From IMG/VR virus record IMGVR_UViG_2667527582_000007: a stretch of DNA of 64,000 nt; one strand, written 5' to 3'. This document shows positions 263 to 46,543 of the stretch, piece after piece. Each line of letters starts with the position of its first letter. The stretch's first letter is position 1. Both the position numbers and the translations under genes were made by a program. Source of the stretch: a virus. Taxonomy: Duplodnaviria; Heunggongvirae; Uroviricota; Caudoviricetes. The notes beneath the pieces are model-generated. The model searched no databases, was not told the origin of the DNA, and saw only the letters and a program-made list of their open reading frames with translations.

Positions 263-617
263 NNNNNNNNNNCCTCCAATAAGTAGCGGTAAATGCCACC
301 ACCGGAGTTCCTACGCTCATGGGTGGTGACCCGAACGGGGGTAGGAATACCGGCCTTATTGGAAACCGGCCAGCCCGAAGGCTGCCCCGCCCGGACCACC
401 ATTATCTGAAAAGGGCTAAGGTATAAGCACCGCAGCCCGAAAAATGGGTGTGCCTGAGCAACGACGTAAAAAAAGACGCACGGCGCGTCTGGTGTCGCCA
501 ATAAGTAACTCGGGTTCCTACGCCCGGCAGCCGATTTTGCGGCTGCGGGAAAACTATACCTGGAAAAGATATCAGGACGCAAGCCAGAAAAAAGGAGATG
601 AGACTGCAAAGCCAGTT

Positions 618-4214: not shown

Positions 4215-4569
4215 NCACCAGTCGCTGCGTGAGGGTTTTATCGGCCTGGCTGGGTGTCGCCTCGCCGGAAGGATGGTTATGCGCCAGTATTACTGCTGCG
4301 GCATTGAAGTGCAGAGCACGTTTGACCACTTCCCGGGGATGCACCTCAGTACGGTTAATCGTGCCGGTGAAGAGCGTTTCATGGGCAATCAACTGATTCT
4401 GGTTGTCCAGATACAACGCCCGGAACTCTTCCCGCTCAAGTGCGGCCATATGCAGTCTCAGCCATTCACGGACAGCGTGTGAGGAGGTGAAGGCCACCCC
4501 AGGTTCATGCAGGTGCCGGTCCAGCGCCCTGAGCGCCCGCTGAATGAGACGCCGGTCCTGTGGCGTCAT
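4215..4569 (-). CDS. RadC-like JAB-domain protein (prophage YeeS/YfjY/YkfG family), 3' truncated
   Basis: MTPQDRRLIQRALRALD...ILAHNHPSGEATPSQADKTLTQRL; HNHPSG JAB motif. Confidence 0.8.
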
Positions 4570-4599
4570 CTCGCCGGGTAAAAAGGAAANNNNNNNNNN

Positions 4600-4745
4600 A
4601 CATCAAATAAAACAAAAGGCTCAGTCGGAAGACTGGGCCTTTTGTTTTATCTGTTGTTTGTCGGTGAACACTCTCCCAACCAGGACAAATCCGCCGGGAG
4701 CGGATTTGAACGTTGCGAAGCAACGGCCCGGAGGGTGGCGGGCAG
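4600..4745 (+). terminator. rRNA operon T1-type terminator region
   Basis: caaataaaacaaaaggctcagtcggaagactgggccttttgttttatctgttgtttgtcggtgaac...tccgccgggagcggatttgaacgttgcgaagcaacggcccggagggtggcgggcag closely resembles the rrnB T1 terminator; hairpin about 4615-4650. Confidence 0.7.
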
Positions 4746-4755
4746 NNNNNNNNNN

Positions 4756-4883
4756 CGACACGCCGATCACCCGGACCATCACGTCGGCAAACATTGACCG
4801 ACTGCGTTTTACCTTCGGTGTGCAGGCACTGGTGGAAACCACCTCAAAGGGGGACAGGAATCCATCGGAAGTCCGCCTGCTGG
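4756..4883 (+). CDS. J: J protein fragment
   Basis: DTPITRTITSANIDRLRFTFGVQALVETTSKGDRNPSEVRLL. Confidence 0.7.
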
Positions 4884-4893
4884 NNNNNNNNNN

Positions 4894-5272
4894 GCAAAAA
4901 GTGAACTTTTGATGATCTTTCCCTGGCCGTTGACTCGATTGCCGTAGCTCGAACGCAAGCACTCTTATCATTCAATGCCATATTGTTCAAAATATTAAAA
5001 ACATTATCTTCGCATTTTTTGCAAATTTTTATTTGCCCGAGTATAAATGCTCCGATATCTCTACGGATATAATTTTTATCAGAGCAGAACTCAATTGCCA
5101 ATCTAACAGCGTCTTGCCCACCTCTTAACTGTAATACTCTGGCAGATGAAATCCTTTTCAAGGAATTGTGATCATCAAGTAAGCGAAATAATTCATCATC
5201 ATTTAGTTTCTTACATTGATTATATAAACCATACTCTTTACTTGCCTTTCTTTTCTGGTATGTATTTGACAT
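4894..5272 (-). CDS. yibA: HEAT-repeat protein YibA-like (Rhs-element associated), 3' truncated
   Basis: MSNTYQKRKASKEYGLYNQCKKLNDDELFRLLDDHNSLKRISSARVLQLRGGQDAVRLAIEFC... resembles E. coli YibA from memory; AT-rich. Confidence 0.55.
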
Positions 5273-5292
5273 TGCAGGAACCNNNNNNNNNN

Positions 5293-5400
5293 CTTATCGT
5301 TGGCGTCCTTCCACTCTTTCGAAAACTCATCCAGTTTGCTGGCGTTATCCTCCGTCAGGTCGACTTTTTCCAGCAGCTCCTTGCCGAGATGGGATTCGGT
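5293..5400 (-). CDS. J: J protein C-terminal-half fragment
   Basis: Minus-strand translation [36 protein letters not shown] matches gpJ repeat motif. Confidence 0.6.
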
Positions 5401-5410
5401 NNNNNNNNNN

Positions 5411-5516
<106 letters not shown>

Positions 5517-5593
5517 NNNNNNNNNNTCAGGTTGTACCAATGCTGCATGCAGTGAATGCGTAGCATGGTTTCCAGCGGATAAGNNNNNNNNNN

Positions 5594-5789
<196 letters not shown>

Positions 5790-6344: not shown

Positions 6345-6790
6345 CGCCAGGTCGTGCCAGAAAGTCATGGCAAACTGCGCGAGCGTCATATAGCCGCCTT
6401 GTTGTAATGACAACATTTTGCGGCTATTCTTGAAGTGTCTGGTTTCAAGATTAGCCCCCGTTTTGTTGTCAGGTTTTACCTCTCAACGTGCGGGGGTTTT
6501 CTCTTTCCAGCAACCAATGCCACCAGGGATAAAGCCCCCGCAACATTGCGCCTCACCGGATAATTCCGGCTTGGTGTGGATACTACTTCTCAATTCATCT
6601 TCACTTCATCCCTGAAATGTTTGCAATAAAGAGTACATTCCGGCTTTTCAACAGCTGTTGCAGTCGTTTCATGAGTGCTCTGGATGATGCTTCCAGCTCG
6701 GGTTGCCAATATTTACTTGTGGAAGAGATAAAGACAAAAATGGCCGCAGGCTGTTACCCCTGCGGCCGGTTTCGGGCGCATATTGCCATC
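6345..6790. repeat. ldr: LDR (long direct repeat) unit, partial, with truncated ldr toxin gene at 6345-6389 (minus)
   Basis: Minus-strand YMTLAQFAMTFWHDLA is the Ldr toxin N-terminus; the rest matches the LDR copies at 9585-9965 and 32090-32848. Confidence 0.7.
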
Positions 6791-9584: not shown

Positions 9585-9965
9585 CGCCGGCTTGGTGTGG
9601 ATACTACGACTCAATTCATCTTCACTTCATCCCTGAAATGTTTGCAATGAAGAGTGCATTCCGGTTTTTCAACAGCTGTTACAGTCATTTCATGAGTGCT
9701 CTGGATGAGGCTTCCAGCTCGGGTTGCCAATATTTACTTGTGGAAGTGATAAAGACAAAAATGGCCGCAGGCTGTTACCCCTGCGGCCGGTTTCGGGCGC
9801 ATATTGCCATCACGGCAGCCTGACGCCCGTTTTCACCTTACTTCCGGTTACGCCACCAGCTGACAATCGCTGCGGTAATAATCCCCGCCAGGATCGGTGC
9901 TGCCAGGTCGTGCCAGAAAGTCATGGCAAACTGCGCGAGCGTCATATAGCCGCCTTGTTGTAATG
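9585..9965. repeat. LDR unit
   Basis: Same repeat as 6345-6790 and 32090-32848. Confidence 0.75.
9838..9945 (-). CDS. ldr: Ldr type I toxin (35 aa)
   Basis: MTLAQFAMTFWHDLAAPILAGIITAAIVSWWRNRK; stop at 9838-9840, start codon at 9943-9945. Confidence 0.85.
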   Translation of the reverse strand: MTLAQFAMTFWHDLAAPILAGIITAAIVSWWRNRK

Positions 9966-30356: not shown

Positions 30357-32032
30357 CTCAATTTACGCAAAATACCGCCATGCCTTCTTCCCTCTGGCAA
30401 TACTGGCGCGGCCTTTCCGGCTGGAACTTCTATTTTCTGGTTAAGTTCGGCCTGTTGTGGGCGGGATATCTTAACTTCCATCCGCTCCTCAATTTGGTGT
30501 TTGCCGCGTTTCTGCTGATGCCCCTTCCGCGCTACAGCCTGCATCGCTTGCGCCACTGGATTGCCCTGCCGATCGGCTTTGCTTTGTTCTGGCATGACAC
30601 CTGGTTGCCTGGCCCGGAAAGCATAATGAGCCAGGGTTCGCAGGTGGCGGGGTTCAGTACCGATTATTTAATCGACCTTGTCACACGCTTTATTAACTGG
30701 CAGATGATTGGGGCCATTTTTGTTTTATTAGTGGCCTGGTTATTCCTGTCACAATGGATTCGCATTACCGTTTTTGTGGTTGCCATACTGCTATGGCTGA
30801 ACGTACTTACCCTGGCGGGACCAAGTTTCTCCTTGTGGCCAGCCGGACAACCGACGACCACTGTAACAACGACGGGTGGTAACGCAGCGGCAACCGTTGC
30901 GGCGACGGGTGGCGCACCGGTAGTGGGTGATATGCCCGCACAAACTGCACCGCCAACAACGGCGAACCTTAACGCCTGGCTGAATAATTTCTATAACGCG
31001 GAGGCGAAACGTAAATCGACCTTCCCGTCTTCGCTGCCCGCTGATGCTCAGCCATTTGAACTACTGGTGATTAACATCTGTTCGCTTTCCTGGTCGGATA
31101 TAGAAGCCGCCGGGTTGATGTCGCATCCACTGTGGTCGCATTTCGATATTGAGTTCAAGAACTTTAACTCCGCCACCTCCTACAGTGGCCCGGCGGCGAT
31201 CCGTTTACTGCGCGCCAGCTGCGGGCAGACTTCGCACACTAATCTGTATCAACCGGCAAATAACGACTGCTATCTGTTTGATAACCTTTCGAAACTGGGC
31301 TTTACCCAGCACCTGATGATGGGACATAACGGCCAGTTCGGCGGTTTTTTGAAAGAAGTTCGCGAAAATGGCGGCATGCAGAGCGAATTGATGGATCAAA
31401 CAAATCTGCCGGTTATTTTGCTGGGCTTTGATGGTTCGCCGGTTTATGACGATACCGCTGTGCTTAACCGCTGGCTGGACGTTACCGAAAAAGATAAAAA
31501 CAGCCGTAGTGCCACGTTCTACAACACGCTTCCACTGCATGACGGCAACCATTATCCGGGGGTCAGCAAAACAGCGGATTACAAAGCGCGGGCGCAGAAA
31601 TTCTTTGATGAACTGGACGCCTTCTTTACTGAACTTGAGAAATCGGGTCGTAAAGTGATGGTGGTCGTGGTGCCGGAACACGGCGGCGCGCTGAAGGGCG
31701 ACAGAATGCAGGTATCTGGCCTACGTGATATCCCTAGCCCGTCTATCACCGACGTCCCCGTTGGGGTGAAATTCTTCGGCATGAAGGCACCGCATCAGGG
31801 GGCACCGATTGTCATCGAACAACCGAGCAGCTTCCTGGCTATCTCCGATCTGGTGGTTCGCGTTCTCGATGGCAAGATTTTCACCGAAGACAATGTTGAC
31901 TGGAAAAAACTCACCAGTGGGTTGCCACAAACAGCACCGGTCTCCGAGAACTCAAATGCAGTAGTTATTCAATACCAGGATAAACCGTACGTTCGCCTGA
32001 ACGGCGGCGACTGGGTGCCTTACCCGCAGTAA
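30353..32032 (+). CDS. bcsG: cellulose biosynthesis protein BcsG (559 aa)
   Basis: [76 protein letters not shown]... Confidence 0.85.
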
Positions 32033-32037
32033 GAACG

Positions 32038-32072
32038 AAAAAGGCCGCAGAGTTTCCCCCCTGCGGCCTGGT
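32038..32072 (+). terminator. rho-independent terminator after bcsG
   Basis: aaaaaggccgcagagtttccccctgcggcctgg hairpin. Confidence 0.5.
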
Positions 32073-32089
32073 CCGGGCGCAAATTGCCA

Positions 32090-32580
32090 TTACGGCAGCC
32101 TGACGCCCGCATGGCACGTTACTTCCGCTTGTTCAGCCAGTTCACGATCATACTGGCAAGAATACCAGCAATGACCGGAGCCGCTAAATCATGCCAGAAG
32201 GCCATGCCCAGTTCTGCGAGCGTCATATAGCCGCCTGTATTGTAATGACAACGTTTCGCGGCTATTCTTGTATTGTTTGGATGCAAGAATGGCCCCCGTG
32301 GTGTTGTCAGGTGCATACCTGCAACGTGCGGGGGTTTTCTCTCTCCAGCAACCAATGCCACCAGGGATTAAGCCCCCGCAACATTGCGCCTCACCGGAAT
32401 CCTTCCGGCTTGACGCTGATTCTACGACTGTTTTTCTGTTCCGGAATCCGTCTCATCTTCACTCTGTGCTGCGCATTCCGCAGAATATTATCCGCTTGCA
32501 ACCGTTGCATTTTTCTTACGAAAAAGGCCGCAGAGTTTCACCCCTGCGGCCTGGTCCGGGCGCAAATTGCCATTACGGCA
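32090..32580. repeat. LDR unit, copy 1
   Basis: ~480-nt unit repeated in tandem; contains ldr and the upstream antisense (rdl) region. Confidence 0.75.
32119..32226 (-). CDS. ldrD: Ldr type I toxin (35 aa), copy 1
   Basis: MTLAELGMAFWHDLAAPVIAGILASMIVNWLNKRK; position after bcsG matches the known ldrD locus. Confidence 0.85.
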   Translation of the reverse strand: MTLAELGMAFWHDLAAPVIAGILASMIVNWLNKRK

Positions 32581-32848
32581 GCCTGACGCCCGCATGACAC
32601 GTTACTTCCGCTTATTCAGCCAGTTCACGATCATACTGGCAAGAATGCCAGCAATGACCGGAGCCGCTAAATCATGCCAGAAGGCCATGCCCAGTTCTGC
32701 GAGCGTCATATAGCCGCCTGTGTTGTAATGCCAACGTTTCGCGGCTATTCTTGAGTTGTTTGGGTTCAAGATTAGCCCCCGTGATGTTGTCAGGTGCATA
32801 CCTGCAACGTGCGGGGGTTTTCTCTCTCCAGCAACCAATGCCACCAGG
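32581..32848. repeat. LDR unit, copy 2 (truncated by gap)
   Basis: Second tandem copy with small sequence differences from copy 1. Confidence 0.75.
32602..32709 (-). CDS. ldr: Ldr type I toxin (35 aa), copy 2
   Basis: Identical 35-aa product; stop at 32602-32604, start codon at 32707-32709. Confidence 0.85.
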   Translation of the reverse strand: MTLAELGMAFWHDLAAPVIAGILASMIVNWLNKRK

Positions 32849-32858
32849 NNNNNNNNNN

Positions 32859-33159
32859 CGCCGGTTTTAAGGGATTAATTACTTCAAAAGTAAAATCTCG
32901 CCCGCAATGTTGTGACGATGACGCGATGATCATTTGCGGGTGCATGGCCCGTCTGAAAAAGAACAACAGCGATTTGCACGATTTATTAGTAGATTATTAT
33001 GTAGTCGGTATGACATTCATGTCACTGGCAGGTAAGCATTGCTGCTCTGATGGTTATATCGGGAAAAGGTTACAGAAGGCTGAGGGCATAATTGAAGGGA
33101 TGTTAATGGCATTAGATATCCGGTTAGAGATGGATATCGTTGTTAATAACTCTAATTAA
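32859..33159 (+). CDS. Cys-rich phage protein C-terminal fragment (possible Q antiterminator)
   Basis: ...[66 protein letters not shown]...; convergent with the porin gene; tentative, by context. Confidence 0.3.
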
Positions 33160-33347
33160 TACGCCAATTATTTACTAAAAGTTATTAAAAATGGGGCGTT
33201 GAGACGCCCCCAAAAATAAAGGGTAATATATAACAGAAGGTTTATATAGTTAGAAGCAAGGTTGTGCTCCTAAAGGAAGTGGCTTGAGGGAGCCACTTAT
33301 ATGTTGGGGAGGCAAAGCCTCCCGCAACATATCTTTTAGTAATCAAA

Positions 33348-34013
33348 TTAGAACTGGTAAACCATACCTACAGCAACGATATCATCGGTAGCAACGCCAG
33401 ATGCTTTCGTGAAATCGCTCTTATCAATCAGGTTGATTTTGTAATCAACAAAAGTGGACATATTTTTGTTGAAGTAATAGGTTGCACCTACATCAATATA
33501 TTCAACCAAGTCCTGATCACCCCACGCACCCAAGTCTTTTCCTTTAGATTGCAGGTAAGCAACGGACGGACGCAGACCGAAGTCGAACTGATATTGTGCA
33601 ACTACTTCGAAGTTTTGTGCTTTGTTGGCAATATGGTTATTACCAAAAACAGTCATGTTCTGGGTTTCAGAATAGGTGGTAGCCAGATAGATGTTGTTCG
33701 CATCATATTTCAGACCAGCTGCCCATACTTCAGCATTTTGACCAGATGCATTCAGGCTGTTGTTACCGTAGATAACCTGATTATTAGTGCGGTCAGATTT
33801 AGCATAGGTTGCACCTACACCGAATCCTTCATACTCATAAGTAGTGGAGAAACCGAAACCATCACCATTAGCTTCAGTTACGTCAGTGCGGTCATTTTTA
33901 CCCTGATACTGAGCAGCAAAGTTCAGACCATCAACCAGACCAAAGAAGTCATTGTTACGATAAGTTGCAACACCTGTGGTGCGACCAGTCATGAATACAT
34001 CTGTTTGGGTCCA
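33348..34013 (-). CDS. general porin (OmpC/NmpC/PhoE family), C-terminal part
   Basis: ...[81 protein letters not shown]; N-terminal part lies in the 269-N gap. Confidence 0.8.
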
Positions 34014-35140
34014 NNNNNNNNNNNNNNNNNNNNNNNNNNNNNNNNNNNNNNNNNNNNNNNNNNNNNNNNNNNNNNNNNNNNNNNNNNNNNNNNNNNNNNN
34101 NNNNNNNNNNNNNNNNNNNNNNNNNNNNNNNNNNNNNNNNNNNNNNNNNNNNNNNNNNNNNNNNNNNNNNNNNNNNNNNNNNNNNNNNNNNNNNNNNNNN
34201 NNNNNNNNNNNNNNNNNNNNNNNNNNNNNNNNNNNNNNNNNNNNNNNNNNNNNNNNNNNNNNNNNNNNNNNNNNNNNNNNNNCTTTTTTCTCAGCTATCG
34301 TCCTCTTATTTTGCCGTTACATTTCTTTTTGCACTCTAATGATTAATTTACAATAATAATATCGGTAATTATTGAGTAATAATAAATTGATTATTGCAAA
34401 TGTAATTTAATTCCATCTTCGCGTTATATTCCAATCTTTAATCTCCGCATGGAACAAGTTGCATGCGTGACTATATTAAGACAACTTATAACCACCAAAA
34501 CATTTGCTTTGCAAGCAAAAACAGTGACCATTGACTCTAAGAAAATTCCGATCTATTGTTAGGATCATCAAAGTTACTTAACAGTATTCCGAAATGAAAA
34601 TACAAAGCAAGCTAATTGTCTTATTAAACATTATCATTGCATTTATATTATTTGAGCTTTTAGCTCAAAAATTTGGTTTGAGTACATTATTTTAAAGCAA
34701 GATAAACAATATCGGGCACTCTAGTTTTTATAATTAACAATTAAACGTCCATAAAATGTTATTTACTTTTCTTCGCTATTGTCATATCTTAATATTGTGG
34801 CTTACGCCACTCTACTTTCATCACATTTTGTACGTTTATGTACTCGCCATGAAGCTCTTTCATGGCGATTTTTTATTCTTAATCCAAGAACATACTCCCT
34901 ACCTATAGCAAAATCACTTTTTTAACAAAAGAATAACGTATTTAGGTAATCATTACGAATTTACCCTATAGGTGCTACTGGCCATTCAATATCCGGTGCT
35001 ACTGATGTATCAACACTGTTCAGCAACACCCGATATGTCTTCCATGCCGTCAGTAACGATGTCTCTTCCTCCGTTGCGATCTCCAGCTCAGCAACAGTCT
35101 GAACGTACCAGGAACAGCCTCCTTCAGGGCTTGAAGGATA

Positions 35141-37841: not shown

Positions 37842-38275
37842 NNNNNNNNNNTACCATTTGACCGGAATGTGAATATTTATGGTGGGCTATTGGCAAAAAA
37901 ATATCTGGAAAGTAGATCGCAGAAAATAAAAAAACCTGCTGGTGAGGCAGGTTCTTTTATTTACTACTTTGATGTTAAGTTACTGATAGTGCAACATGGC
38001 ATCTCAACGAACGAATTATAACCACCTCTGGACAGTGTTGCAATTAAGATAATGAGATTTATAATCCTGACTGTTGGGAAGTTGCGCCGGATCGAACCCA
38101 TTTCAAGTCCTGGCTACCGGACGGGTGGTGCCGCAGGTAGTGCTCTGATCCGGAGTGCAACATGGCGACTCAACAAACGTAAACCAGTATCGACAGGCAG
38201 TGTAAGGTGCTGGTGTTGCGCTCCTTAATAAGGAGAGCGGATGGACACGCTGACACAAAAGTTAANNNNNNNNNN

Positions 38276-46347: not shown

Positions 46348-46543
46348 TGCCAGGTCGTCCCAGAAAATCATGGCAAACTGCGCGAGCGTCATATAGCCGC
46401 CTTGTTGTAATGACAACATTTTGCGGCTATTCTTGAATTGTTCTGGTTCAAGATTAGCCCCCGTTCTGTTGTCAGGTTGTACCTCTCAACGTGCGGGGGT
46501 TTTCTCTTTCCAGCAACCAATGCCACCAGGGATAAAGCCCCCG
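46348..46543. repeat. ldr: LDR unit fragment with truncated ldr at 46348-46392 (minus)
   Basis: Minus-strand YMTLAQFAMIFWDDLA plus conserved upstream LDR sequence. Confidence 0.7.

What the first reader, a model, noticed from the sequence alone, without database searches (positions are those of the whole stretch)
32033..32848. Two tandem LDR units (ldr type I toxin genes) directly after bcsG
Two complete 35-aa ldr ORFs (32119-32226 and 32602-32709, minus strand) sit ~483 nt apart in one gap-free contig downstream of bcsG. The encoded toxins are identical, while the flanking LDR sequence differs at several positions, so this is not a trivial assembly duplicate. From memory, K-12 has one LDR-D at this locus and three tandem copies at a different locus. 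Further LDR fragments occur at 6345, 9585 and 46348. The rdl antisense RNA genes should lie in the 5' UTR regions (about 32227-32500 and 32710-32848) but I could not place their ends by eye.
Basis: partly seen in the sequence, partly recalled or inferred. Interest (0 to 1): 0.45.

Follow-up and report, generated by a model that had tools for sequence, protein, structure and literature searches.

The report
Tandem Ldr/Rdl toxin-antitoxin repeats after bcsG
Downstream of the E. coli cellulose gene bcsG sit at least two tandem copies of the well-known Ldr/Rdl toxin-antitoxin repeat, an arrangement found in about 60% of complete E. coli genomes and therefore ordinary.

Summary
Two 35-aa ldr ORFs (32119-32226 and 32602-32709, minus strand) lie 483 nt apart, directly after bcsG. 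They encode the same peptide, and the two repeat copies differ at 13 of 331 aligned bases. Rfam places full-length rdl antitoxin RNAs on the plus strand at 32275-32340 and 32758-32823, 48 nt upstream of each ldr start codon, as in K-12.

The contig ends at 32848, so unit 2 is truncated: 331 of about 483 nt, with the predicted toxin promoter missing. The array size is therefore only "at least 2".

The arrangement is not unusual. In a sample of 60 complete E. coli genomes, the bcsG-yhjV gap held 1 unit in 22, 2 in 5, 3 in 22 and 4 or more in 10. An LDR unit also sits beside bcsG in Salmonella, Citrobacter, Kluyvera and other Escherichia species.

Unit 2 is identical to the last unit of four close relatives, so a two-unit array is likely but unproven.

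One modest extra: the differences cluster in the single-stranded 5' tail of Rdl, which could be a specificity determinant.

Verdict: already known, low interest.

The parts
30353..32032 (+). bcsG (cellulose phosphoethanolamine transferase), the upstream neighbour. The LDR array starts 2 nt after its stop codon.
   Evidence: 559-aa ORF. The stretch 29098-32034 is 100% identical to K-12 bcsE'-bcsF-bcsG.
32035..32517 (.). LDR-D-type unit 1, complete, 483 nt.
   Evidence: Direct repeat of period 483. Alignment with 17 units from 9 genomes. 2 differences from copy 3 of strain B771.
32042..32069 (-). G+C-rich hairpin followed by a T run. Predicted intrinsic terminator of the ldr-1 mRNA. It lies 10 nt after the bcsG stop codon, so it may also end bcsG transcription.
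   Evidence: Terminator scan.
32119..32226 (-). ldr-1, 35-aa toxin MTLAELGMAFWHDLAAPVIAGILASMIVNWLNKRK.
   Evidence: Pfam PF13940 at 93.2 bits. 34/35 identical to LdrD 5LBJ.
32240..32268 (+). Candidate rdl-1 promoter: TTGTAA, 17-nt spacer, TATTCT, ending 7 nt before the Rdl 5' end. Read by eye, inferred.
   Evidence: Sequence. It falls below the threshold of the consensus scan, which found no promoter.
32275..32340 (+). rdl-1 antisense antitoxin RNA, 66 nt.
   Evidence: Rfam RF01813, 81.7 bits, full length. It folds as a 5' tail, a long hairpin and a U tract at -30.1 kcal/mol, z -3.2.
32419..32424 (-). Candidate -10 box (TAGAAT) of the ldr-1 promoter. Predicted start near 32413, giving a 5' UTR of about 187 nt and an mRNA of about 380 nt. 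Inferred.
   Evidence: Sequence, with the same hexamer conserved in K-12. No consensus promoter was called.
32518..32848 (.). LDR-D-type unit 2, truncated by the contig end (331 of about 483 nt). The predicted ldr-2 promoter would lie beyond 32848.
   Evidence: Identical over 331/331 nt to the last unit of strains 1332KP, S1-INA-02-B, H1827/12 and B771.
32525..32552 (-). Predicted intrinsic terminator of the ldr-2 mRNA.
   Evidence: Terminator scan.
32602..32709 (-). ldr-2, same 35-aa toxin as ldr-1, with 2 synonymous differences.
32723..32751 (+). Candidate rdl-2 promoter: TTGTAA, 17-nt spacer, TATTCT. Inferred.
   Evidence: Sequence, in register with unit 1.
32758..32823 (+). rdl-2 antisense antitoxin RNA, 66 nt. 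It differs from rdl-1 at nt 7, 9, 15, 17 and 27.
   Evidence: Rfam RF01813, 90.4 bits. Fold at -31.7 kcal/mol, z -5.0. Differences listed.
32849..32858 (.). 10-N spacer marking the end of the contig. The sequence after it is unrelated.
6345..6790 (.). Separate mini-contig holding part of an LDR-A/B/C-type unit: the 5' part of an ldr ORF, rdl at 6437-6502, and the start of the next unit.
   Evidence: Rfam rdlD at 91.8 bits. 84% identical to unit 1.
9585..9965 (.). Separate mini-contig holding an LDR-A/B/C-type spacer and a complete ldr ORF (9838-9945, minus strand; MTLAQFAMTFWHDLAAPILAGIITAAIVSWWRNRK).
   Evidence: Pfam at 89.9 bits.
46348..46543 (.). Separate mini-contig holding an LDR-A/B/C-type fragment with rdl at 46440-46505.
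   Evidence: Rfam at 86.3 bits.

Best explanation
The region holds an array of at least two, and probably exactly two, tandem LDR-D-type Ldr/Rdl type I toxin-antitoxin modules in the conserved bcsG-yhjV intergenic gap of an E. coli strain.

Each module has two transcripts:
- Minus strand: an mRNA of about 380 nt with a 5' UTR of about 187 nt, a 35-aa membrane-peptide toxin (Ldr) and an intrinsic terminator.
- Plus strand: a 66-nt antisense RNA (Rdl), fully complementary to the toxin 5' UTR, 48 nt upstream of the start codon.

How it works, taken from work on K-12 ldrD/rdlD and not shown here: Rdl pairs with the 5' UTR and blocks toxin translation without covering the ribosome-binding site. The duplex is cut by RNase III. 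If Ldr is made in excess it arrests growth and condenses the nucleoid.

The number of units at this locus changes between strains, most simply by unequal homologous recombination between the roughly 480-nt repeats. K-12 carries one unit; this strain carries two or more.
For: Shown here:
- Toxin family and near-identity to LdrD.
- Full-length Rfam rdlD hits on the opposite strand with the K-12 spacing.
- Rdl fold of a 5' tail, a hairpin and a U tract.
- Terminator hairpins after each ORF.
- Period of 483 nt with 13 differences between the copies.
- Colinear matches to complete genomes with 2, 3 and 4 annotated Ldr genes between bcsG and yhjV.
- Copy-number sample of 60 genomes: 22 with 1 unit, 5 with 2, 22 with 3, 10 with 4 or more.
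- An LDR unit beside bcsG in other Escherichia species, Salmonella, Citrobacter, Kluyvera and Pseudocitrobacter.
- Unit 2 is identical to the last unit in four close relatives whose bcsEFG flank is at least 99.93% identical. Strain B771 has the same two unit types adjacent as its last two units.

From the literature:
- LdrD is toxic, and RdlD represses it while overlapping the 5' UTR but not the ribosome-binding site (PMC4147584; PMC8309996).
- An RNase III-cleaved ldrD/rdlD duplex has been detected (PMC7373196).
- Tandem duplication and lineage-specific copy changes of ldr-rdl are described (PMC2887945).
Against: - Nothing about expression or toxicity is shown for these particular copies.
- The consensus promoter scan found no promoter, so my promoter assignments are by eye.
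- The toxin promoter of unit 2 is not in the assembled sequence.
- No complete genome has this exact pair directly after a K-12-identical bcsG; the best match is 99.0%. Because the contig ends inside the repeat, the array size is not established from this assembly. Direct adjacency of these two units rests on short-read assembly through about 238 nt that could be shared with other units.
Confidence: 0.9

Rival explanations
1. The array in this strain has three or more units. The contig shows only the first two, or the assembler skipped an internal unit through shared sequence.
For: Among sampled genomes with at least 2 units, 32 of 37 have 3 or more. Close relatives ATCC 8739 and B771 have 3 and 4 units. 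The contig ends inside the repeat. In B771 the unit most like unit 1 is the third unit, not the first.
Against: Unit 2 is identical to the last unit of four close relatives. Three of them have exactly two units. No extra D-type LDR fragment is present in this window, although the window covers only 64 kb of the assembly.
Confidence: 0.3
2. The second copy is an assembly artefact: a chimeric join of the single LDR-D with a read pile from another LDR locus, or an erroneous duplication.
For: The assembly is highly fragmented, with 95 10-N spacers (plus one 269-N gap) in 64 kb. LDR is a multi-copy repeat. The exact unit pair is not found in any complete genome.
Against: Unit 2 is of the D type. 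The other-locus units of the same strain are only 75-88% identical. The 13 differences and the unit 1 to spacer to unit 2 junction match the real tandem layout of many complete genomes base for base, with 1349/1349 colinear at 99.0%. Unit 2 equals a real last unit in four genomes.
Confidence: 0.05
3. One or both units are decaying remnants and no longer work as toxin-antitoxin modules.
For: Chromosomal type I loci sometimes degenerate (PMC2887945). No promoter reaches the consensus threshold.
Against: Both ORFs are intact, and the only ORF differences are synonymous. The peptide equals RefSeq WP_001295224.1, which is annotated at this locus in many of the sampled complete genomes. Both Rdl RNAs score above the Rfam gathering threshold and keep the fold. 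The candidate -10 boxes are conserved with K-12.
Confidence: 0.05

Closest known systems
E. coli K-12 LDR-D (ldrD/rdlD, b4453/b4454) between bcsG and yhjV
   Same: Same upstream gene, with the flank 100% identical over 2937 nt. Same strand layout and the same 48-nt gap between rdl and the ldr start codon. The toxin is 34/35 identical. Rdl nt 28-66 are identical.
   Different: K-12 has one unit and this strain has at least two. The toxin has L3 instead of F3. The Rdl 5' tails differ: K-12 has GTCTAGAGTCAAGATTAG, against GTTTGGATGCAAGAATGG and GTTTGGGTTCAAGATTAG here. Unit 1 is 94.8% identical and unit 2 is 96.7% identical to K-12 LDR-D.
Multi-unit LDR-D arrays of other complete E. coli genomes (1332KP, H1827/12 and S1-INA-02-B with 2 units; ATCC 8739 and UTI89 with 3; B771 with 4)
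   Same: Same locus, period, orientation and toxin (WP_001295224.1). Unit 2 is identical to their last unit, and unit 1 is 2 nt from B771 copy 3.
   Different: The exact order (this unit 1 directly after bcsG, followed by this unit 2) was not found in any of 5,426 complete genomes; the best overall match is 99.0%.
K-12 LDR-A/B/C array (ldrABC/rdlABC)
   Same: Same family and the same tandem organisation. Fragments of this type from the same strain lie at 6345, 9585 and 46348.
   Different: A different chromosomal locus and a different toxin subgroup (the LdrB group of PMC2887945). Only 75-88% nucleotide identity to unit 1.
Ibs/Sib and Zor/Orz tandem type I toxin-antitoxin families
   Same: Tandem, near-identical modules in one intergenic region. 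In Sib, the target-recognition domains lie in the most variable stretches and confer cognate-only repression (PMC2943612). Here the variable stretch is the Rdl 5' tail.
   Different: Unrelated toxins and RNAs. Cognate discrimination has not been tested for Rdl.

Membership tests
Ldr/Rdl type I toxin-antitoxin (LDR repeat) | 35-aa hydrophobic toxin of the Ldr family (Pfam PF13940) | tested here: met
   Full-length match at 93.2 bits against a cut-off of 27. 34/35 identical to LdrD 5LBJ.
Ldr/Rdl type I toxin-antitoxin (LDR repeat) | Cis-encoded antisense Rdl RNA (Rfam RF01813) opposite the toxin 5' UTR and not overlapping the start codon | tested here: met
   Full-length hits at 81.7 and 90.4 bits against a gathering score of 50, on the opposite strand, 48 nt upstream of each ATG, as in K-12.
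Ldr/Rdl type I toxin-antitoxin (LDR repeat) | Rdl structure: unpaired 5' tail, long hairpin, U-rich 3' end | tested here: met
   Minimum-free-energy folds of -30.1 and -31.7 kcal/mol, z -3.2 and -5.0, with the same shape as K-12 RdlD.
Ldr/Rdl type I toxin-antitoxin (LDR repeat) | Long direct repeat unit of about 0.5 kb | tested here: met
   Period of 483 nt and 96% identity over the 331 nt available.
Ldr/Rdl type I toxin-antitoxin (LDR repeat) | Peptide is toxic when overproduced, and Rdl represses its translation | not testable with these tools
   Known for K-12 LdrD/RdlD from the literature. Inferred here from 34/35 identity.
Ldr/Rdl type I toxin-antitoxin (LDR repeat) | Own promoters for the toxin mRNA and for Rdl | tested here: inconclusive
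   The consensus scan found none. By eye, TTGTAA-17-TATTCT lies before Rdl, and a conserved TAGAAT with a weak -35 lies before ldr. The region where the ldr-2 promoter is predicted lies beyond the contig end.
LDR-D locus (as opposed to LDR-A/B/C) | Located between bcsG and yhjV | tested here: inconclusive
   The bcsG side is met. yhjV is not in the window because the contig ends in unit 2.
LDR-D locus (as opposed to LDR-A/B/C) | LdrD-group toxin sequence (C-terminus ...ASMIVNWLNKRK) rather than the LdrB group (...TAAIVSWWRNRK) | tested here: met
   Translations. The grouping follows PMC2887945.

The most novel reading that the evidence does not exclude
The first 17-27 nt of Rdl, its single-stranded 5' tail, may be a modular and hypervariable specificity determinant. 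It would keep tandem Ldr/Rdl modules largely insulated from one another, as the variable recognition domains of Sib RNAs do.

Evidence in favour:
- Among 17 D-type units, nucleotide diversity is 0.156 in Rdl nt 1-27, against 0.009 in nt 28-66 and 0.023 in the ORF.
- 29 Escherichia units carry 16 different tails built from three small variable blocks. Some tails are shared between E. coli and E. ruysiae.
- In the window, 5 of the 13 differences fall in these 27 nt (Fisher p = 0.002).
- Predicted pairing of the 16-nt tail drops from about -23 kcal/mol with the cognate target to -12 to -15 kcal/mol with the non-cognate one.

Evidence against:
- Strain B771 has two adjacent units with identical tails.
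- The remaining 39 nt of Rdl stay fully complementary across units.
- The excess over third codon positions of the ORF (used as a stand-in for synonymous change) is not significant for this pair (p = 0.13).
- Relaxed constraint on a cis-antisense region would give a similar picture.
Probability: 0.3. Interest if true: 0.35.

Novelty: already known. Interest (0 to 1): 0.12.

Why it matters
It matters little beyond correct annotation. The region should be labelled as two Ldr-family toxin genes with their RdlD-type antitoxin RNAs, plus a note that the contig ends inside the array.

It is also a useful reminder that K-12 is not representative of this locus. About 60% of complete E. coli genomes carry 2 to at least 4 LDR-D units here, so the difference from K-12 is normal strain variation. 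Short-read assemblies will routinely break at this spot.

The clustering of variation in the Rdl 5' tail gives a cheap, testable hypothesis about how tandem type I modules avoid cross-talk. The idea has precedents in Ibs/Sib and Zor/Orz.

Tried and rejected
1. Leader ORF. An in-frame upstream ATG (32314-32316 in unit 1, 32797-32799 in unit 2) inside the Rdl target reads openly into ldr in most E. coli D-type units. I considered it as the proposed 'ldrX' leader ORF. It is not conserved: it is ATA in E. ruysiae, there is a stop codon in O111:H2 copy 2, and it is absent or closed in Salmonella, Citrobacter and Kluyvera. It therefore gives no support for that coupling model. The +1 frame that overlaps the ldr start codon has no canonical start codon.

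2. Promoter scan. The consensus scan found nothing in 31900-32848.

3. NCBIfam. No hit for either 35-aa peptide.

4. Search for the yhjV side of the locus, or for extra D-type LDR fragments, in the window. None found.

5. My first reading that unit 1 is identical to O111:H2 copy 1 was wrong. There are 4 differences in the terminator loop.

6. The idea that tails are always distinct within a genome was rejected by B771 copies 1 and 2.

7. The Rosetta2(DE3) record, the best match to unit 1 plus its flank, has LDR-D followed by ibs/yegL. This is a rearranged context that did not help.

8. The primary papers Kawano 2002 (DNA Res) and Kawano 2012 (RNA Biol) are not held in the library. Whether the variable Rdl tail was already noted there could not be checked.

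Full report
**What is in the sequence.** The interval 32033-32848 follows the stop codon of a 559-aa ORF (30353-32032) that is bcsG. A direct repeat with a start-to-start spacing of 483 nt begins at 32035. An ungapped comparison of 32035-32365 with 32518-32848 gives 13 differences in 331 nt.

On the minus strand, each copy has a 35-aa ORF (32119-32226 and 32602-32709). Both encode MTLAELGMAFWHDLAAPVIAGILASMIVNWLNKRK. The two nucleotide differences inside the ORF are synonymous.

The window is not a piece of chromosome. It is about 95 short contigs joined by 10-N spacers, with one additional 269-N gap. The contig carrying the finding runs from 29098 to 32848, and a spacer occupies 32849-32858. 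The sequence after the spacer encodes the C-terminal part of a phage Q antiterminator and a porin, so it is unrelated.

Unit 2 is therefore truncated to 331 of about 483 nt. It keeps the terminator, the toxin ORF and the whole rdl gene. It lacks the stretch where the toxin promoter is predicted.

They are 75-88% identical to unit 1 and carry a different toxin (MTLAQFAMTFWHDLAAPILAGIITAAIVSWWRNRK at 9838-9945). Repeat-induced contig breaks explain all of these pieces.

**Identity.**
- Toxin: the peptide matches Pfam Ldr_toxin over its full length at 93.2 bits. It is 34/35 identical to K-12 LdrD, whose NMR structure is 5LBJ; the only change is F3L.
- Antitoxin: Rfam's rdlD model (RF01813, gathering score 50) gives full-length plus-strand hits at 32275-32340 (81.7 bits) and 32758-32823 (90.4 bits). 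It also hits 6437-6502 and 46440-46505 in the A/B/C-type fragments.
- Spacing: each rdl starts 48 nt upstream of its ldr start codon, exactly as in the K-12 annotation.
- Fold: both RNAs fold into an unpaired 5' tail, a long hairpin and a U tract (-30.1 and -31.7 kcal/mol, z -3.2 and -5.0), like K-12 RdlD.
- Terminators: terminator-like hairpins follow each ORF on the minus strand (32069-32042 and 32552-32525). The Rdl hairpins also score as plus-strand terminators.

**Promoters (inferred).** The consensus scan found no promoter. By eye, TTGTAA-17-TATTCT ends 7 nt before each Rdl 5' end (32240-32268 and 32723-32751).

A TAGAAT hexamer conserved with K-12 lies at 32424-32419 on the minus strand. 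It predicts a toxin mRNA of about 380 nt with a 5' UTR of about 187 nt. The equivalent site for unit 2 would lie near 32907-32902, beyond the contig end.

**How common is the arrangement.** The 1349-nt query 31500-32848 matched many complete genomes colinearly in one piece, with two Ldr genes annotated after bcsG. In an evenly spaced sample of 60 records, 37 had at least two Ldr genes under the match and 22 had one; K-12, O157:H7 and ETEC H10407 are single-copy.

I then used the three-unit UTI89 locus as the query, so that the span of the match reports copy number. A second sample of 60 gave these counts:

| Units between bcsG and yhjV | Genomes |
|---|---|
| 1 | 22 |
| 2 | 5 |
| 3 | 22 |
| 4 or more | 10 |
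| Off-locus hit | 1 |

Individual loci confirm 1 unit (K-12, O157:H7, MS8324), 2 units (1332KP, O111:H2, E166, S1-INA-02-B, H1827/12), 3 units (UTI89, CFSAN061768, ATCC 8739) and 4 units (B771). These samples are systematic rather than random, and the collection is biased towards clinical lineages, so the fractions are approximate.

Outside E. coli, I scanned species-representative genomes with a conserved Rdl 19-mer. It found LDR units next to bcsG in several taxa:
- E. ruysiae: 3 units.
- E. whittamii: 1 unit.
- Escherichia sp. E1V33: 2 units.
- Salmonella enterica subsp. arizonae and diarizonae: 1 unit.
- Several Citrobacter species: 1 unit.
- Kluyvera: 1-3 units.
- Pseudocitrobacter: 1 unit.

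The locus is thus old and syntenic, and its copy number has changed repeatedly. This agrees with Fozo et al. 2010, who described ldr-rdl as duplicated within one intergenic region and evolving by lineage-specific duplication and loss (PMC2887945).

**How many units does this strain have.** This cannot be read from the contig. Two observations favour exactly two:
- The bcsE'-bcsF-bcsG flank (2937 nt) is 100% identical to K-12, ATCC 8739 and H1827/12. It is at least 99.93% identical to B771, 1332KP and S1-INA-02-B.
- Unit 2 is identical (331/331) to the last, yhjV-proximal unit of 1332KP, S1-INA-02-B, H1827/12 and B771. In B771 the unit just before that last one differs from unit 1 by only 2 of 483 nt.

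The contig also stops 3-4 nt before a site where internal and last units of these relatives differ (alignment column 336). A graph assembler would be expected to stop at such a branch.

Against a firm conclusion:
- Most multi-unit genomes have three or more units.
- No complete genome has this exact pair directly after bcsG; the best match is 99.0%.
- About 238 nt between the last unit-1-specific site and the first unit-2-specific site could be shared with other units.

I put exactly two units at roughly 0.65, three or more at 0.3, and an artefactual second copy at 0.05. The artefact reading is weak for three reasons. Unit 2 is of the D type, whereas the strain's other LDR units are only 75-88% identical. 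The junction and all 13 differences match real tandem arrays base for base.

**Mechanism.** What is established comes from K-12 ldrD/rdlD:
- Overproduced LdrD stops growth and condenses the nucleoid within minutes.
- The exact mechanism is still described as unknown. A hok/mok-like leader ORF ('ldrX') has been proposed but not confirmed (PMC4147584; PMC8309996; PMC8167048).
- An RNase III-cleaved ldrD/rdlD duplex has been detected in vivo (PMC7373196).

All of this is inferred for the two units here, from near-identity. I tested one candidate for the leader ORF, an in-frame ATG inside the Rdl target (32314-32316). It is not conserved even within Escherichia, so it adds no support.

**A pattern worth recording.** The differences between the two units are not spread evenly. 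Seven of the 13 lie in 32271-32301, which is Rdl positions -4 to +27 (Fisher p = 4e-5). Five lie in Rdl nt 1-27 (p = 0.002).

Across 17 D-type units from 9 genomes, nucleotide diversity by region is as follows:

| Region | Nucleotide diversity |
|---|---|
| Rdl nt 1-27 | 0.156 |
| Spacer between the ORF and rdl | 0.047 |
| 3' UTR | 0.038 |
| Toxin ORF | 0.023 |
| Rdl nt 28-66 | 0.009 |

Among 29 Escherichia units there are 16 different tails. They are assembled from three small variable blocks (nt 3-6, 7-9 and 15-17), and some tails are shared between E. coli and E. ruysiae.

Predicted pairing of the 16-nt tail falls from about -23 kcal/mol with its own target to -12 to -15 kcal/mol with the other unit's target. 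This resembles the Sib RNAs, whose recognition domains lie in their most variable stretches and give cognate-only repression (PMC2943612).

The pattern is only suggestive, for four reasons:
- A cis-antisense region is always complementary to its own target, so relaxed constraint gives the same picture.
- The excess over third codon positions of the ORF (used as a stand-in for synonymous change) is not significant for this pair (p = 0.13).
- The other 39 nt of Rdl remain fully complementary between units.
- B771 has two adjacent units with identical tails.

**Verdict.** The finding is a correctly identified member of a well-known family, in an arrangement already annotated in a large share of RefSeq complete genomes. 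It should be annotated and scored low. The only corrections are that the array is cut by a contig end, so its size is unproven, and that the single copy in K-12 is one common state rather than the norm.

Noticed in passing
window 1-64000: The window is a concatenation of about 95 short contigs (roughly 60-3,700 nt) joined by 10-N spacers, plus one 269-N gap at 34014-34282. Much of the content is repeat-derived: tRNA genes, REP-type naRNA4 elements, RtT, LDR and prophage pieces. Adjacency across any N run has no genomic meaning.
   Followed up: partly
window 37928-38001 (-): Full-length Rfam hit to the OrzO-P antitoxin RNA (91.7 bits) of the zor/orz type I toxin-antitoxin system. That locus is reported absent from K-12 MG1655 (PMC2887945), so the strain is not K-12 even though its bcsEFG stretch is identical to K-12.
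   Followed up: no
window 29098-32034 versus 32035 onward: The bcsE'-bcsF-bcsG flank is 100% identical to K-12 over 2937 nt. Identity drops to 94.8% exactly at the first base of the LDR. This sharp boundary suggests the LDR array recombines or converts independently of its flank.
   Followed up: partly
L001 (K-12) versus L002 (1332KP), alignment: K-12's single LDR-D looks like the front of 1332KP unit 1 (including the F3 toxin) joined to the back of 1332KP unit 2, with the switch around alignment columns 251-335. This is what an unequal crossover that deleted one unit would leave.
   Followed up: no
window 319-559 (-): Rfam hits to C4 antisense RNA (83.4 bits), isrK (75.8 bits) and the c4 a1/b1 target (49.7 bits). 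These are the immunity-region RNAs of P1/P7-like or related prophages.
   Followed up: no
window 32859-33992: The contig after the spacer encodes the C-terminal 90 residues of a phage antitermination protein Q (Pfam 120 bits). On the minus strand it also carries the C-terminal 214 aa of a Gram-negative porin (Pfam Porin_1, 307 bits), which runs into the 269-N gap. This looks like a lambdoid prophage Q plus porin cassette.
   Followed up: partly
window 5436-5786 and 56986-57064: Four naRNA4 (CssrE) hits. The three at 5436-5513, 5608-5685 and 5709-5786 score on both strands (that at 56986-57064 on the minus strand only) and sit in separate tiny contigs, as expected for palindromic REP/BIME repeats.
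   Followed up: no
L084 (Rosetta2-DE3, NZ_CP083274.1) 4522-5594: In this deposited 'complete' genome, LDR-D after bcsG is followed by ibs/ibsA and yegL instead of yhjV. This is either a large rearrangement with a breakpoint at the LDR or a misassembly through it.
   Followed up: no
L062 (Bacillus sp. EB106-08-02-XG196, 503-nt contig, coverage 0.66), L014 and L023 (cyanobacterial and Anaerolineaceae MAGs): The Rdl 19-mer also hit non-enterobacterial records. L062 is a 503-nt low-coverage contig carrying a near-K-12 ldrD (MPFAELG...), which is almost certainly E. coli contamination. The two MAG hits were not examined.
   Followed up: no
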